Source of the DNA: a virus
Lineage: Duplodnaviria > Heunggongvirae > Uroviricota > Caudoviricetes
Virus record (IMG/VR): IMGVR_UViG_2740892526_000019
Length of the DNA stretch: 10,894 nucleotides
Reading direction: 5' to 3' (one strand)
Numbering within the stretch: the first letter of the stretch is position 1; each line of letters opens with the position of its first letter. The position numbers are program-made. Positions 1-6,000 of the stretch are shown piece by piece.

Positions 1-3000
1 ATGAGCAGAGCACTTAACAAACTGAGCGATACACAGCTGAGGAAAATCAACGGCACACCCGCCCAAAAAACAGCCTTTCTTAATGACGGTGGAAACCTGA
101 GCGTCAGGCATTCAACCAGTGGCCTTTTAACCTGGTATTTCACTTACAGGGCCGGAACGGGAAGGGGGGCACCACCGGAACGCATTAAGCTGGGAAATTA
201 TCCTGATCTGAGCCTGAAATCAGCCAGGGAAAAAGCCGCCCAGTGTCGCGCATGGCTGGCAGAGGGGAAAAATCCACGTCATGAGCTTAATTACACCGTA
301 CAGGAAGCGTTAAAGCCGGTAACGGTTGGCGATGCGCTCACCTACTGGCTTGAGTCGTACGCAAAGGAAAACCGCGTGGATTATGCCGCCCTGAAAAAGC
401 GCCTTAATAATCACGTAATACAGCACATTGGTGCTATGCCGCTGGATAAATGCGAGCTACGGCACTGGCTGGCCTGTTTTGACCAGGTGGCAAAGCGAAC
501 GCCTGTTACTGCCGGATTCTTGCTACAGACGTGCAAACAGGCGCTTAAGTTCTGCCGGAGGCGGCGCTATGCAATCAGCAACGTTCTTGATGATATGAGT
601 GTGGCGGACGTTGGGAAAAAACCGGATATAAGCGAGCGTGTCTTAAGCACCAAAGAACTGGGCGAATTATTGCAGGCACTGGACAAAAAAATATTCTCCC
701 CCTACTACATCGCGTTAATCCGCCTCCTGATTGTGTTCGGATGCCGGACGGTAGAACTGAGGTTATCGGAGATCAGCGAGTGGGATTTTACCGAAATGCT
801 CTGGACCGTGCCGAAAGAACACAGCAAAACGAAGGTGGCAATATTCCGGCCCATACCGGAAGCAATACTGCCGTTCGTCACGCAGCTGGTGGAGCAGAAC
901 AGGCACACGGGTTTATTGCTGGGGGAAGTGAAACAGGAAACAAGCGTGTCGCAGTACGGCAGATTAGCGCATAGGAGGCTAAATCACCCTCACTGGTCAC
1001 TACATGACATCCGGCGCACCTTTACAACGATGCTGAACGATTTAGGCGTGGATCCTCACGTCGTGGAGCAGCTTACAGGCCACCAGATGCCAGGAATGCA
1101 GCGAGTTTATAATCATTCCCGTTATCTGGATGCTAAACGCAATGCGCTGGATATGTGGACGGAGCGGTTAGGGATACTGGCGGGAACACATGAAAACGTA
1201 ACCACGCTACCAGTAGCCAGAAGAAAATAATTTTTTTCGTGTTTTTTCAGCATGCGCATACTGGATATGCGAACAGATACAACGTGCAGCAATGAGCAAC
1301 AATGTGGAACAACCACGAACAAGAGGCGAAAAAGCGTACGGATTTATAAGTAGCTGATTTTTAATGTGTTACTGGTTTTTTATACACTAGCGAATCACTC
1401 TTTAAAGAGCGAGAAAAAAGGCATGAAACAATATTTTATGCCTTTGTATTAACATGAATTTAAAAGATTTTATTCTTACTGTTTCATTTTCTGTAAATCA
1501 TACATCCTCAGTATTTGCCATTCATCACTCTAGCGGGAACAATACGACACAATAAGACACCTGATGACTCTTTAAGAAACGAAAGGGGGCAATAGTGTTA
1601 AGCACTGATCGGTTTATACGTGAAAAAGAATGCGAAAAACTAACCGGCCTTAGCCGTACGTGTCGCTACCGCCTGGAAAAGGCCGGACAATTCCCATCAC
1701 GTCGTAAACTTGGCGGTCGTTCCGTTGGCTGGTCTTTATCCGAGGTTCTGGCCTGGAAGGATAGCTGCAAGGCAGTTCATTAATCACGCTGGCGGCACGC
1801 AGCCGCCACACATCAATCATCTGAACACAGAGCTATAACCATGAAGATTGAATATACGCCAGAACGTGGGCGGGGATTCGTTCGCCCTGGTGAAACTGAA
1901 AAACAACAAAATTGGGGTTTTTCAGGTATAAAAAAAGCGGCCCCGAAATGGAGCCGCCTTTCTGAACAGATAACCCGCTGCGCCGTTTGTGTGTGTGATC
2001 CCAAACATAAGCACGGGGATGATAGCCGCTATCAGGCTGGTGGGCAATGCAATCAGTCTGGTTCAGTTCGTTGCCATACCTGCAATGAGCGCTTTTCCCT
2101 GTACTCTTTAAGGAATTGCTCAAGGGCAAAAGCACATGGTGCGAATCTTTCTGATTCATGCTCTATCTTTCTGCGCCGTCTTTTCCGTGCCGGTGATAAT
2201 GTTTTGGTCAATTCTTTATCGGTCATTGTGTTGTCCTGCATAGCAATGCGCCGTAATACCTCACACCACGGCGCTGATAGTTTTTATCCTTTGGGTTCTA
2301 TACCGCGCCGCTTTAGTTCAGTACGCCCCAACTCTTTAAGCCAGTTGGCTAGGCTTATGCCGTCGCTCTGTGCTTCTTTATCGAATTGCTCTTTTAGCTC
2401 TGGAGAAATTCGCATTCTGAATTGTGGGGATTGCCCGTCCCCTTTAGGGCTTTTATCGCGTTTGATTGTTGACAAGTGGTCACCTATTGAATTAGCCTTT
2501 CTATTGTTAGGTGGTCACCTTAACACAAGAGCACTTAAAAAAGCAAAGCCCCGCAAGTGTCATTACCACTCGCAGGGCTTCTAACCAACAACGTAAACTA
2601 GGAGCCGTTATGGTTGCTGTAAATCATATACCACACCTTGTACACACACAAACGGCCTTTGTGTGGCGTTTTCTGGCACTGAGTGCCGGAGAATCTCAAA
2701 TCATCCACGTAACCGCCTGGACGGAACGCGAAGCGCGTAGCCGTTGCCCGTCAGGTTGTGTTGCTGTATTTGCCGCCCGTATTCGTCAGGGGGTGTGCCA
2801 TGCTTAAAACCTTCCGTGTATTTGCCAGCGCTGTTAACCCACTAGGCCACACAATTGGTATCGCTCAGAATGTGAAGGCTGTTAATGTTCAGACGGCTAT
2901 TGCTGCGGTGAGAAGCGAATCATCAGAATATGGCTTATCACAAGTCATTATTTCAGCAGTGTATGAATTAAAAGAGGTGCATTAATGAAGGAAATTACAT

Positions 3001-6000
3001 TACACGAAGCCGCTGAACGTGCGCACCAGACAGAAATTATTTGCCGCCTTCTTGAGGTATACCCTGATAAATTAAATGATGGTGATATATCCGCATTAGC
3101 TGGCCTTCTGGCAAAACTGTCAGGAAGTGTTGCGCTGTGGTTAATTGATGAGAGAGCCGAACGCTATGAAAAATAATAAACTGGCGACCAGTGAATTAAG
3201 AAGCCTTGCCAACAGCGCAATATCTTTAAACAACGCAGCAAACGAAGTAATGAATATGTGGCTTCAGTCGCTGGTGAATAATGAACGCGATGAATCAACT
3301 GCAAGATTAATATTAGCCGTTTCTGAATTACTGGATAGTTCAACCAGCAAAATAGAGAGCATATCAGAGAAGATTAACGGCTTATCAGGTCACGCTATCG
3401 GGGAATAAAAATAATGAAACTTAAATATCCTGGCTTAACTGACAGCGGCAAAACTCGCACTAAATTCATGCGCGGGGATATTTACCGCGACCAGTACGGC
3501 GGCACGGTAATGATTAAGGGCGTGGAGGAACGGCGCGTAACCTACCATCGTGAAGGCTACGAATATGATTGCGTGATGCCTGTTTATCAGTTCCGGCGTG
3601 ATTTTTCTCTGGTACAGGCAGCGCCCCGCAGTAAACCAACCAGCAGGGAGAAAGCACGCGCCAATATTCAGGAAATAAAAAAGATGCTTAACGTATTCAG
3701 GGGTAAAAAATGAAACTGGCACCGAACGTAAAAAAACAGCCACGCGGAATAAAACACAAAGACACAGAGGTGATTATTTTCGCGGGTAGTGATGCGTGGG
3801 CACATGCAAAACAGTGGCAGGAGCAGGACGGCCCCGCATCCGGCGATAATGTGCCTCCTGTGTGGCTTGGGGAGCAGCAGTTATCAGAACTGGATAAGCT
3901 GCAAATTGTGCCGGAAGGCAGAAAATCCGTGCGCATATTCAGGGCCGGACATCTTGCACCAGTAATGATCAAGGCGATTGGTCAAAAGCTGGCGGCGGCT
4001 GGTGTACAGGATGCAAATTTTTATCCTGAGGGTATGCACGGTCAGAAGGTGGAGAACTGGCGCGAATATCTGGCCCGTGAGCGGCAGAATCTTTCTGATG
4101 GTCTGGTTATTGAGTTTCCGGTAAAGAAAAAAGATACCGGAAGCCATAGCGATGACGAATTAAAGCCACGCGTTGAAAGTCGCGCCGATGGTGTTTTCTG
4201 GGTAACGCCCAAAGTGGATAAGCAGTCAGGCGAAATTATCCGGCCTGAGACGTGGTTATGTTCTCCGCTTGAACTACTGGGAACGGGGACGATCGGTAAA
4301 GAGCATTACCGCGTGATGCGCTGGAAAAAAACCGCAAACCATGAAGTCATCACAATGGCGATCCCGTGTGGTGGTATCGGCGACCGTGACGGCTGGCGGT
4401 TACTTAAAGATCACGGGCTGAACGTGACAACCAACGGCAAATACAGGGCAATCCTGGCGGACTGGATGCAGTTAAGCGGAAGCCATGAGGAATGGCAGTT
4501 AAGCACAACAACGGGCTGGCATTTTGGCGCGTACATCATGCCGGACGGTTCGATCATTGGTGAATCTGAAAAACCGATCCTGTTTACCGGAAAAAGCGCC
4601 GCGATTAACGGTTATTCCGTGGCGGGCACGGCGGATGGCTGGCGCGACAGCGTGGCGCGGCTGGCTGGCGGTAATGCCTCAATGATACTGGGTGTGGCAA
4701 CGTCACTGGCAGCGCCTTTAATTGGCCTTGTGGGTGCTGACGGCTTCGGGGTGCATCTTTTCGAACAGTCATCGGCAGGTAAGACCACCACGCAGAACAT
4801 CGCATCAAGTTTATGGGGAGAGCCGGACGCGCAGCGGCTGACCTGGTACGGCACGGCGTTAGGTATTGCCAATGAGGCCGAGGCCCATAATGACGGGCTT
4901 TTACCACTGGATGAGATAGGCCAGGCCGGAAATGCGCGGGAAGTGTCAACGTCTGCTTATACGCTGTTTAACGGTTCAGGGAAATTGCAGGGGGCGAAGG
5001 ATGGCGGCAACAGGGAGATCAAACACTGGCGAACGGTGGCAATCAGCACCGGAGAAATGGACGTTGAGACATTCCTCAAAAGTGAGGGGATAAAAGTTAA
5101 GGCGGGGCAGCTTGTCCGACTGCTTAACGTTCCGATGGAAAAAGCCACGAAATTTCACGAATACAGCAACGGTAAGGAACATGCTGACGCGTTAAAGGAT
5201 GCCTGGACAGCAAATCACGGGGCGGCGGGTCGTGAGTGGGTTAAATGGCTGGCAGGCCACCAGCAGGAGGCAAAGGACACGGTAAGGGAATGCCGCGAAC
5301 GGTGGCGCAACCTGATACCGGAGAGTTACGGCGAGCAGGTCCACCGCGTGGGTGAACGTTTCGCCATACTGGAGGCCGCGCTTGTGCTTTCCGGTCATGT
5401 AACTGGCTGGGTCGTGCAGGAATGCCGCGACGCGATACAGCATAACTTTAATGCCTGGGTGAAGGAGTTCGGCACGGGTAACAGGGAATTTAAACAGATG
5501 GTTGAACAGGCTGAGGCGTTTTTGTCGTCGTTTGGGTTTAGCCGCTACCTTCCGCACCCCAATACAGATGAGCGTGATTTACCGATTAAAGAGCTTGCCG
5601 GATACAGAAAAGGGAGCATTCGCAACGAAGATGACGAGATGCGCTATTACACGTTCCCGCACGTGTTTGAGAGTGAGATAGCGAAGGGATTTAATCCGGC
5701 GCATTTTGCGCGTGCCCTGGATGCTGCCGGAATGCTGGAGAAGGGAAGCGATCGCCGATACAAAAAAAAGGCGCTGGGCAAGATTGGGGGTAAGCAGCAT
5801 GTTTTTTACGTGCTGATGTTCCAGCCTGATGATGAAGATTAATCCCCTGTGTGAGGAAAAAAATTGCGGGTTATGCGGGTTATCCTGTGTATAAGTGTAT
5901 TAAGTGTATGAATATAAAGGAAATCAATAACCCGCACGTAACCCGCAAAAGGGCATTTATAACCCGCAAAAGCACGATTATAACCCGCAGGCGAATAACT

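What the first reader, a model, noticed from the sequence alone, without database searches (positions are those of the whole stretch)
2610..3713. Five translationally coupled small ORFs feeding directly into the primase gene
ORFs of 65, 61, 63, about 80 and 99 aa are chained by overlapping stop/start codons (ATGCTTAA at 2800, TAATG at 2985, overlap at 3166, ATGA at 3710), and most have SD sequences. Such tight coupling suggests stoichiometric co-expression. I cannot assign any of them to a family from sequence alone. In satellites, small early genes in this position often mediate helper interference, helper sensing or counter-defence.
Basis: inference. Interest (0 to 1): 0.6.

Follow-up and report, generated by a model that had tools for sequence, protein, structure and literature searches.

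The report
Early operon of satellite island EcCIEDL933
The five small overlapping genes are real and sit at the head of the replication operon of a well-studied E. coli O157:H7 phage satellite; two already have identities (a phage P1 Icd-type division-inhibitor homologue and the published virulence regulator RgdR), so the finding is mostly ordinary, though its control region may hold an undescribed repressor and antisense RNA.

Summary
Five + strand ORFs (2610-2807, 2800-2985, 2985-3176, 3166-3408, 3414-3713) run into the replication gene (3710-5842) with junctions of -8, -1, -11, +5 and -4 nt. The window is 100% identical to O157:H7 O-island 51 / CP-933C / Sp7, the prototype capsid-forming PICI EcCIEDL933. 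The ORFs are ECs_1577-1581.

ORF5 is RgdR (DUF4222), a published LEE1 activator and motility repressor. ORF1 is a true homologue of phage P1 Icd. ORF2-4 match only unannotated PHROGs.

All five have dN/dS of about 0.2-0.35. In 101 related islands the order is fixed: an Icd-like ORF first, swappable small ORFs, then RgdR, then Rep. RgdR overlaps Rep by ATGA in 97 of 100, and 70% of 435 junctions overlap.

My best reading is that this is the PICI counterpart of the P4 left operon and P1 immI. A translated leader ORF and coupling pass control down to the replication gene.

This lineage lacks the C4/CI immunity RNA. Instead it has a divergent Arc-like repressor with matching operators and a conserved minus-strand terminator, which suggests an antisense RNA over ORF1's ribosome-binding site. 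That part is inferred.

I found no evidence for helper interference or counter-defence.

The parts
1595..1783 (+). alpA (AlpA-family activator/excisionase-like HTH), upstream of the chain
   Evidence: Pfam Phage_AlpA 5.4e-17. AlpA is required for EcCIEDL933 induction, and its over-expression drives island reproduction.
1841..2584 (+). Long + strand ORF (247 codons, PGAP 'hypothetical'). It opens right after the alpA stop and ends 25 nt before ORF1. It may be an Eta-like read-through ORF that links alpA to the chain.
   Evidence: Annotated. No family hit. An equivalent open frame of at least 150 codons (median 331) is present in 93 of 101 related loci, while the second-longest of the other two + frames has a median of 29 codons. 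It starts at or near the alpA stop in 59 of 92 loci. Selection tests cannot separate it from the antisense genes.
2053..2241 (-). Small minus-strand ORF (62 aa), downstream of the repressor gene
   Evidence: phrog_21027 1.6e-15. Homologues in L004, L005, L006 and L011.
2284..2475 (-). Divergent Arc/Mnt-like ribbon-helix-helix repressor candidate (63 aa, TTG start with an AGGTGA Shine-Dalgarno)
   Evidence: phrog_228 Arc-like repressor 5e-7. Pfam HicB 4.9e-4 and Arc 0.14. The profile's best PDB hits are Arc, Mnt and the uncharacterized protein 56B (2kel), with E 0.1-0.5. 115 of 125 related loci have such a gene, and most of the larger clusters carry their own repeated operator.
2469..2520 (.). 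Promoter/operator region: TTGACA at 2469-2474 and two copies of GTGGTCACC (2476-2484, 2511-2519)
   Evidence: Repeat family D6. Two exact copies against 0.04 expected. The operator sequence changes with the repressor cluster in relatives.
2537..2581 (-). Intrinsic terminator on the minus strand (15-bp stem 2581->2545 plus a U-tail to 2537), directly upstream of ORF1's Shine-Dalgarno
   Evidence: Fold energy is -31.7 kcal/mol (z -3.8) on the minus strand against -16.4 (z -1.1) on the plus strand. All 44 sequence variants in relatives fold better on the minus strand, by 6.7 kcal/mol on average. A compensatory A:T to C:G change is visible.
2623..2651 (-). Putative promoter of a roughly 80-nt antisense RNA (-10 TATGAT at 2628->2623, -35 TTGTGT at 2651->2646). 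The RNA would run about 2616->2537 across ORF1's ATG and Shine-Dalgarno.
   Evidence: Read from the sequence. In the commoner ORF1 start type, 35 of 37 variants carry TGGTATGAT on the minus strand. No expression data, so this is inferred.
2610..2807 (+). ORF1 = ECs_1577, an Icd-like leader ORF
   Evidence: NF033153 5.8e-18. 41% identity to P1 Icd over 46 aa. Always first in the chain, except where a long fused form takes that place.
2800..2985 (+). ORF2 = ECs_1578, function unknown, narrow distribution
   Evidence: phrog_3672 9e-46. Only 11 homologues, all E. coli, in the large protein search. dN/dS 0.09-0.31 in diverged pairs.
2985..3176 (+). ORF3 = ECs_1579, function unknown
   Evidence: phrog_1478 7.6e-35. 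dN/dS 0.17-0.37. Family F9 is present in 18 chains.
3166..3408 (+). ORF4 = ECs_1580, function unknown; always the gene just before RgdR when present
   Evidence: phrog_5796 8e-53. Family F3 sits at position -2 in 60 of 60 cases. Members are diverse.
3414..3713 (+). ORF5 = ECs_1581 = RgdR (DUF4222)
   Evidence: Pfam 2.1e-23. Position in Sakai. 99 aa, with residues D10, R20, G21, D22, Q27, K35, H45 and R61 as published. The model is an SH3/KOW/Tudor-like barrel plus a C-terminal helix.
3710..5842 (+). rep ('primase'): N-terminal TOPRIM-like domain (about residues 1-130) plus a DUF927/Cch-like helicase and an HTH

Best explanation
The five ORFs are the promoter-proximal genes of the early/replication operon of the phage satellite EcCIEDL933, a capsid-forming PICI also known as O-island 51, CP-933C or Sp7. 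The operon reads: Icd-like leader (ORF1), three exchangeable accessory genes (ORF2-4), RgdR (ORF5), then Rep. In layout and logic it is the PICI counterpart of the phage P4 left operon (vis - eta/kil - epsilon - orf151 - cnr - alpha) and of P1 immI (c4 - icd - ant).

Shown here: all five are conserved genes under purifying selection. ORF1 is homologous to P1 Icd. ORF5 is the published regulator RgdR. The order 'Icd-like first, RgdR last and overlapping Rep by ATGA' is nearly invariant across about 100 related islands, while the middle genes are swapped gene by gene.

Inferred: the stop/start overlaps make each cistron's translation depend on the one before it. Control applied at the head of the chain would then reach the replication gene and keep the mRNA protected from polarity. 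Three head controls are proposed:
- repression by the divergent Arc-like repressor at the GTGGTCACC operators;
- AlpA-driven transcription reading in from alpA through the long ORF 1841-2584;
- in this lineage, a roughly 80-nt cis-antisense RNA over ORF1's ribosome-binding site, taking the place of the C4/CI RNA that relatives carry.

By homology, ORF1 probably also blocks host cell division once the island is induced. RgdR's native job is probably tied to Rep or to DNA, and its effects on LEE and motility are a by-product. ORF2-4 remain accessory proteins of unknown activity.
For: - Identity of the island: 100% match to O157:H7 chromosomes between roxA and phoQ, with int, alpA, rep, capsid, protease, portal and terminase genes. 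Literature.
- Gene reality: dN/dS 0.1-0.4 for each ORF in informative pairs, similar to rep. PHROG families for all five.
- ORF1 and Icd. P1 icd overlaps ant1 by 4 nt and is annotated as required for ant expression.
- P4 parallel: the P4 kil/eta region hits the same family (F7 profile against P4 'cI ORF137' 3.8e-12, against P1 Icd 2.5e-14). In P4, eta translation prevents termination and is coupled to the alpA homologue.
- A leader ORF coupled to a downstream gene was shown experimentally for isrK-orf45-anrP.
- RgdR.
- Architecture statistics: (F2 at position -1 in 100 of 100 cases; ATGA in 97 of 100; 304 of 435 junctions overlap).
- Mosaicism.
- C4 and isrK RNAs are present in relatives L004, L007 and L012 and in the P4 and P1 controls, but absent from the window.
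- Repressor and operators.
- Minus-strand terminator and antisense promoter.
- Long ORF from alpA.
Against: - No experiment here shows coupling, polarity, the antisense RNA or repressor binding.
- Every downstream ORF except ORF4 has its own Shine-Dalgarno, so independent initiation is possible.
- The antisense promoter in this window is weak on consensus (8 of 12) and was not reported by the promoter scan.
- The long + strand ORF and the repressor gene share wobble positions, so selection tests cannot tell which strand is coding.
- Some related islands carry frameshifted or truncated ORF2, ORF3 or rgdR, so these genes are dispensable for maintaining the island in the chromosome.
Confidence: 0.7

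Rival explanations
1. One reading: one or more of the small ORFs (most plausibly ORF2-4) act on the helper phage through interference, sensing or derepression, or act as counter-defence. On this view the coupling serves to make them in fixed ratios.
For: Positions between the Icd-like ORF and RgdR are filled by many unrelated, swappable families (F3, F5, F8, F9, F10, F12-F15). Identity varies gene by gene between islands. That pattern is typical of loci in conflict with phages. P4 keeps its helper-derepressing gene epsilon in the same position. ORF2 is restricted to E. coli.
Against: No PADLOC match. No similarity to P4 epsilon, ORF151 or Cnr. No solved-structure relatives. Nothing in true phage genomes. 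The published work on this island read here assigns no function to these ORFs.
Confidence: 0.25
2. The overlaps are only genome compaction, as in most phage and satellite operons. Each cistron initiates on its own, and the chain has no regulatory meaning.
For: Overlaps of -1, -4, -8 and -11 nt are the commonest classes everywhere in the family. Most cistrons keep a Shine-Dalgarno. Overlap classes such as -4 and -1 are common in bacterial operons (general knowledge).
Against: The first cistron belongs to the Icd/Kil family. In P1 and P4 the translation of that cistron is the documented control point for downstream genes. The RgdR-Rep ATGA junction is kept in 97 of 100 chains even though three different helicase types follow.
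Confidence: 0.3
3. RgdR (ORF5) is a virulence 'moron' whose selected role is regulating host LEE and motility. It is not part of the island's replication or regulation machinery.
For: Deleting rgdR or OI-51 lowers type III secretion and sheep colonisation, and expression in trans complements the defect.
Against: RgdR is present in essentially every related island, including those from LEE-negative strains. It always lies directly upstream of Rep. Sequence from this region, most often the rgdR/rep N-terminal segment alone, is found in 1479 of 5426 complete E. coli genomes. The protein binds DNA without specificity.
Confidence: 0.3
4. Some of the small ORFs are spurious or decaying and make no functional protein.
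For: Pseudogene calls for ORF2, ORF3 or rgdR in a few strains. There are antisense shadow ORFs over ORF4 and ORF5.
Against: dN/dS well below 1 in diverged pairs. Each ORF matches a PHROG family at E below 1e-30. Order and junctions are conserved. RgdR has been purified and tested.
Confidence: 0.04

Closest known systems
EcCIEDL933 (cf-PICI; O-island 51 / CP-933C / Sakai Sp7) and Gram-negative PICIs such as EcCICFT073
   Same: The window is this element (100% identity). It has the int - alpA - dynamic zone - replication zone - late zone order described for Gram-negative PICIs. Published work states that RgdR is encoded by all analysed E. coli PICIs.
   Different: Nothing differs in sequence. 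The papers read here give no function for ECs_1577-1580, name no repressor for Gram-negative PICIs (one calls its existence 'unclear'), and do not discuss translational coupling of this chain.
Phage P4 left operon (vis/orf88 - eta/kil with CI RNA - epsilon - orf151 - cnr - alpha)
   Same: A satellite with an AlpA-type gene, then a Kil/Icd-type ORF at the head of a chain of small overlapping ORFs (8-nt overlaps) that ends in the primase-helicase. Translation of the leader ORF prevents termination. The long ORF following the alpA homologue resembles eta.
   Different: The window has no C4/CI or isrK/seqA RNA. No homology of ORF2-5 to epsilon, ORF151 or Cnr. The window adds a divergent Arc-like repressor and a minus-strand terminator. 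Rep has another helicase type and no zinc-finger primase motif.
Phage P1 immI operon (c4 RNA - icd - ant1/ant2)
   Same: ORF1 is homologous to Icd. In both, the Icd-type ORF comes first and overlaps the next gene (ATGA in P1, ATGCTTAA here). P1 icd is annotated as needed for ant expression.
   Different: No c4 RNA or a/b target sites here. The downstream genes are unrelated (replication rather than antirepressor).
Phage P22 immI (mnt / arc - ant, with sar antisense RNA)
   Same: An Arc/Mnt-type ribbon-helix-helix repressor is transcribed divergently from the controlled operon. A small cis-antisense RNA over a ribosome-binding site inside that operon is proposed here. The details of P22 sar are from my own knowledge.
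   Different: The similarity to Arc and Mnt is weak (E 0.1-0.4), the antisense RNA is unproven, and the controlled genes differ.
Gifsy-1 isrK - orf45 - anrP
   Same: A small leader ORF whose translation is required, through coupling, for expression of the downstream gene. isrK-like elements occur in sister PICIs.
   Different: There is no isrK element in this window.

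Membership tests
Capsid-forming PICI (EcCIEDL933 type) | int and alpA at the left end, followed by a replication gene | tested here: met
   ORFs 1-1230 (integrase), 1595-1783 (Phage_AlpA 5.4e-17) and 3710-5842 (DUF927 helicase).
Capsid-forming PICI (EcCIEDL933 type) | Own capsid/packaging module (major capsid, protease, portal, connectors, HNH, TerS, TerL) without tail or lysis genes, in an element of roughly 15 kb | tested here: met
   PGAP annotation of the identical locus between roxA and phoQ. Capsid, protease and portal ORFs are in the window.
Capsid-forming PICI (EcCIEDL933 type) | Induction and transfer depend on a helper phage and on AlpA | not testable with these tools
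   Taken from the literature for this same element.
Icd family (NCBIfam NF033153; P1 Icd) | Sequence match above the curated cut-off and direct similarity to P1 Icd | tested here: met
   ORF1 scores 64.7 bits against a cut-off of 25. P1 Icd scores 52.6 bits on the same model. Pairwise 41% over 46 aa, E 2e-7.
Icd family (NCBIfam NF033153; P1 Icd) | Inhibits host cell division | not testable with these tools
   Needs an over-expression/filamentation assay.
P1/P4-type RNA immunity (C4/CI RNA with isrK/seqA-type target) | A C4-family RNA immediately upstream of the Icd/Kil ORF | tested here: not met
   No C4 or isrK match in the window even at E up to 1. The same models find P1 C4, P4 CI and copies in L004, L007 and L012.
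RgdR / DUF4222 (Pfam PF13973) | DUF4222 domain above the gathering score, and identity with ECs1581 | tested here: met
   82 bits against a cut-off of 27. ORF5 is ECs_1581 by position in Sakai. 99 aa, with the RGD motif at 20-22 and all six diagnostic residues as published.
RgdR / DUF4222 (Pfam PF13973) | Activates LEE1 and represses motility | not testable with these tools
   Published for this protein.
Translationally coupled operon | Stop/start overlaps or very short gaps between successive same-strand cistrons, conserved in relatives | tested here: met
   Junctions of -8, -1, -11, +5 and -4 nt. 414 of 435 junctions are 10 nt or less in relatives.
Translationally coupled operon | Downstream translation depends on upstream translation | not testable with these tools
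   Needs stop- and start-codon mutants with translational fusions.
Ribbon-helix-helix repressor (Arc/Mnt/CopG type), for the 2284-2475 gene | Sequence membership in an RHH family | tested here: inconclusive
   phrog_228 Arc-like repressor 5e-7. Pfam HicB scores 20.4 bits, just under its cut-off of 21, and Arc has E 0.14. The profile's top PDB hits are Arc (0.11), Mnt (0.44) and 2kel (0.49).
Ribbon-helix-helix repressor (Arc/Mnt/CopG type), for the 2284-2475 gene | Cognate repeated operators at the controlled promoter | tested here: met
   GTGGTCACC occurs twice against 0.04 expected. Different repressor clusters carry different repeats in the same place. Binding itself was not tested.
TOPRIM (DnaG/T7-type) primase, for the N-terminal domain of the 3710-5842 product | TOPRIM fold | tested here: met
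TOPRIM (DnaG/T7-type) primase, for the N-terminal domain of the 3710-5842 product | Catalytic Glu after strand 1 and a DxD motif after strand 3 | tested here: not met
   From the alignment and model: strand 1 ends ...IIFAGSD (Ala where Glu is expected), and strand 3 reads VRIFRAG (no DxD). The invariant residues are T19, E20, I22, I23, A25, G26, S27, D28, A29, L53 and R75. This rests on motif inspection only, not on a residue-level superposition.
Known anti-phage defence systems (PADLOC) | Match to any defence-system protein model | tested here: not met
   No hit for any of the five ORFs or the two minus-strand ORFs at E up to 0.1.

The most novel reading that the evidence does not exclude
Gram-negative PICIs of this lineage do have a true immunity system, which has not been described, and the five-ORF chain is its target. 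The proposed system has four parts.
- A diversifying Arc/YlcI-type repressor with matching operators.
- That repressor gene is embedded antisense inside a long, translated Eta-like ORF that links alpA to the chain.
- A roughly 80-nt cis-antisense RNA (about 2616->2537) blocks translation of the Icd-like leader, and through coupling and polarity blocks replication. It would take over the role of the C4/CI RNA that this lineage has lost.
- RgdR would be a KOW/Tudor-like partner of a catalytically degenerate TOPRIM-helicase, and its virulence effects would be side effects.
Probability: 0.3. Interest if true: 0.65.

Novelty: already known. Interest (0 to 1): 0.35.

Why it matters
The finding as written describes annotated genes (ECs_1577-1581) of a model satellite, one of which (RgdR) was characterised in 2011. 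On its own it adds little.

The context is more useful. How Gram-negative PICIs are kept silent, and what AlpA actually switches on, was called unclear in the paper that defined them. Here the head of the replication operon carries several features that each predict something testable:
- a repressor candidate whose operators co-vary with it;
- a conserved minus-strand terminator placed to make an antisense RNA over the leader's ribosome-binding site;
- an Icd/Kil-type leader;
- a long open frame running in from alpA.

The fixed RgdR-Rep pairing across three helicase types also suggests that a known EHEC virulence regulator is first of all a satellite replication or regulation protein.

Tried and rejected
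- Sequence searches of the five ORFs against PDB chains gave nothing below E 0.1.
- The phage genome collection holds nothing at DNA level. At protein level there is no match for ORF4. The only match for ORF1 is a 16.5-kb 'induced prophage' record whose size is like that of a PICI.
- The species-genome scan with an RgdR alignment returned only two loci, because the patterns were too specific.
- Rfam found no RNA family in the window. The one weak hit (rnk leader, E 0.44) is just the terminator hairpin.
- I checked whether the minus-strand RNA could be the EHEC sRNA Esr41. It cannot, because Esr41 lies in OI-43/SpLE1. A search of sRNA interactome supplements for these coordinates found nothing. 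The Pas-sRNA preprint was not relevant.
- P4 epsilon, ORF151 and Cnr show no significant similarity to any chain family.
- An apparent RgdR-Rep fusion protein (P0202) is a deletion product with a frameshifted tail, not a natural fusion.
- Correlating RgdR and Rep N-domain divergence gave only linkage-level values (0.41, against 0.35 for the other neighbour), so it says nothing about interaction.
The ORF2 family is too shallow for a useful alignment. The AlphaFold-database fold library was unavailable. ORF1-4 therefore have no models.
- dN/dS cannot decide between the repressor gene and the long + strand ORF, because their wobble positions coincide.

Full report
**What is there**

The window carries an integrase (1-1230), alpA (1595-1783), five small + strand ORFs, a 710-aa replication gene, then SSB, a PerC-family gene, and major capsid, prohead protease and portal genes. 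Region 2400-3900 is 100% identical to E. coli O157:H7 chromosomes, where the element sits between roxA and phoQ. In Sakai it is annotated 'prophage Sp7', with the five ORFs as ECs_1577 to ECs_1581. This is O-island 51 / CP-933C. It is also the prototype capsid-forming PICI, EcCIEDL933.

**Check of the observation**

There is one correction: ORF4 to ORF5 is a 5-nt gap, not an overlap. There is also one ambiguity: ORF4 may start at 3148. The + strand ORFs cover 99.5% of 2610-3713, and none of 1000 dinucleotide shuffles came near that.

**Are they genes?**

Each ORF matches a PHROG family at E below 1e-30. In pairwise comparisons with ten related E. coli, Shigella and E. albertii loci, informative pairs give dN/dS of 0.1-0.4 for every ORF, the same range as for rep.

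Identity varies gene by gene between islands. For example, L002 shows 85/66/94/69/94% and L003 shows 52/95/76/33/75% for ORF1 to ORF5. Recombination therefore shuffles single genes.

**Identities**

ORF1 matches NCBIfam NF033153 'Icd-like'. It aligns directly to phage P1 Icd (41% over 46 aa, E 2e-7), and P1 Icd matches the same model.

ORF5 is DUF4222 and is RgdR. It has the same locus tag position, 99 aa, the RGD motif at 20-22, and the six residues that distinguish it from the ED1a variant. RgdR activates LEE1, represses motility and binds DNA non-specifically. It is reported in all analysed E. coli PICIs.

ORF2-4 have no Pfam, NCBIfam, PADLOC or PDB relatives. ORF2 has only 11 close homologues, all from E. 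coli.

**Family-wide architecture**

A conserved motif just upstream of ORF1 retrieved 120 IMG/VR contigs, mostly 7-14 kb. In 101 non-identical complete chains:
- the first ORF is Icd-like, or a longer form that includes the Icd core;
- the last small ORF is RgdR in 100 chains, always immediately before Rep;
- the RgdR-Rep junction is ATGA in 97 of 100;
- ORF4's family is always the gene just before RgdR (60 of 60);
- between one and five unrelated small families fill the middle;
- of 435 junctions, 304 overlap and 110 are gaps of 0-10 nt.

Rep comes in three helicase types: D5_N/DUF5906, AAA_25 RepA-like and DUF927. All three share an N-terminal domain of roughly 120-150 aa, which is 62-76% identical to the window's while the rest is unrelated.

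**Structures**

**How the chain is probably controlled**

In P1, icd is the first cistron after the C4 RNA. It overlaps ant1 by ATGA and is annotated as required for ant expression.

In P4, the Kil/Eta region belongs to the same family. The small ORFs there overlap by 8 nt on the way to the primase-helicase alpha. Translation of eta, coupled to the alpA homologue, prevents termination. Coupling through a leader ORF is shown experimentally for isrK-orf45-anrP.

Rfam finds C4 and isrK in sister PICIs L004, L007 and L012 and in the P1 and P4 controls. It finds neither in this window. Comparison with L004 suggests that the window's ORF1 arose by a deletion. The deletion would have removed isrK and C4 and joined an upstream partial Icd copy to the Icd core.

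In place of the RNA system the window has three features.
- **A divergent repressor candidate.** The 63-aa Arc/Mnt-like gene at 2284-2475 faces two GTGGTCACC repeats, one next to a TTGACA. Across relatives, 115 of 125 loci have such a gene, and most of the larger clusters have their own repeated operator in the same place.
- **A strong minus-strand terminator at 2581->2545.** Its folding favours the minus strand in all 44 sequence variants, through G-U pairs. A promoter-like element lies on the minus strand inside ORF1's first codons: TATGAT here, and TGGTATGAT in 35 of 37 variants of the commoner start type. Together these predict an RNA of about 80 nt complementary to ORF1's Shine-Dalgarno and ATG.
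- **A long + strand open frame running in from alpA.** This is 1841-2584 here, with a median of 331 codons in 93 of 101 relatives. In most relatives it continues in frame into the Icd-like ORF, which recalls P4 eta/kil.

I infer, but have not shown, that translation starting at the head of the chain is the gate for the whole operon.

**Caveats**

The long + frame and the repressor gene share wobble positions, so pN/pS is low for both and cannot tell which is coding. The repressor is supported independently by family matches and by operator co-variation. No expression evidence for the antisense RNA was found.

**Verdict**

The helper-interference/counter-defence idea is untested and has no positive support.

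The most useful outputs are the fixed RgdR-Rep module and a testable model for repression of this class of satellite.

Noticed in passing
window 1841-2584 (+), overlapping 2053-2241 (-) and 2284-2475 (-): PGAP annotates a 247-aa + strand 'hypothetical protein' that runs antisense across two small minus-strand genes and all the gaps between them. A comparable open frame (median 331 codons) exists in 93 of 101 related loci, and in most it continues in frame into the Icd-like ORF, like P4 eta/kil. The repressor gene would then be embedded antisense in a translated ORF.
   Followed up: partly
window 2537-2581 (-) and 2623-2651 (-): A conserved intrinsic terminator on the minus strand lies just upstream of ORF1, with a -10-like element inside ORF1's first codons. 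This predicts an antisense RNA of about 80 nt over ORF1's ribosome-binding site. It has no Rfam family and no annotation in RefSeq.
   Followed up: partly
window 2469-2520; relatives L002-L133: Operator-like repeats change together with the divergent Arc/YlcI-type gene, giving at least eight distinct repeat/repressor pairs. This looks like an immunity system with many specificities in Gram-negative PICIs, where a repressor had been called unclear.
   Followed up: partly
window 1397-1406, 1567-1576, 2103-2112, 2331-2340 (+): ACTCTTTAA(G/A) occurs four times, all on the + strand and only in the regulatory zone (0.42 expected by chance). Two copies lie upstream of alpA. They are candidate AlpA sites, which is my guess only.
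   Followed up: no
window 3710-4100 (rep residues 1-130): The N-terminal domain shared by three otherwise unrelated PICI helicase types has a TOPRIM-like fold but lacks the canonical Glu and DxD motifs. The 'primase' may be inactive or unconventional.
   Followed up: partly
L004 4073-4411; L012 2281-2832; P4 (L134) 8168-8584: The database labels 'ash family protein' and PHROG 'transcriptional repressor' for Icd-related ORFs appear to come from translating the C4/CI RNA gene region (the historic P4 'cI gene product').
   Followed up: partly
L002 4137-4310; L009 3501-3879; L003 5028-5326: Some strains carry truncated ORF2, an internal stop in ORF3, or a frameshifted rgdR. Proteins P0163, P0166 and P0202 are deletion fusions of the Rep N-domain with PerC, SSB or RgdR. 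Many islands of this family are decaying.
   Followed up: no
window 6461-6871 and 6882-7154: The SSB gene is followed by a PerC-family regulator gene. PerC homologues on PICIs are reported to activate or repress LEE, so this island carries two LEE-related regulators, RgdR and PerC.
   Followed up: no
phage record LR881103.1 (H56): 'Escherichia phage vB_KppS-Ant', a 16.5-kb 'induced prophage', is the only record in the phage collection with an ORF1 homologue. Its size is like that of a capsid-forming PICI rather than a phage.
   Followed up: no
window 3393-3408: The conserved C-terminal ...G-E-stop of ORF4-family proteins coincides with the GGGGAA Shine-Dalgarno of rgdR. The protein's end may be constrained by the next gene's ribosome-binding site.
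   Followed up: no
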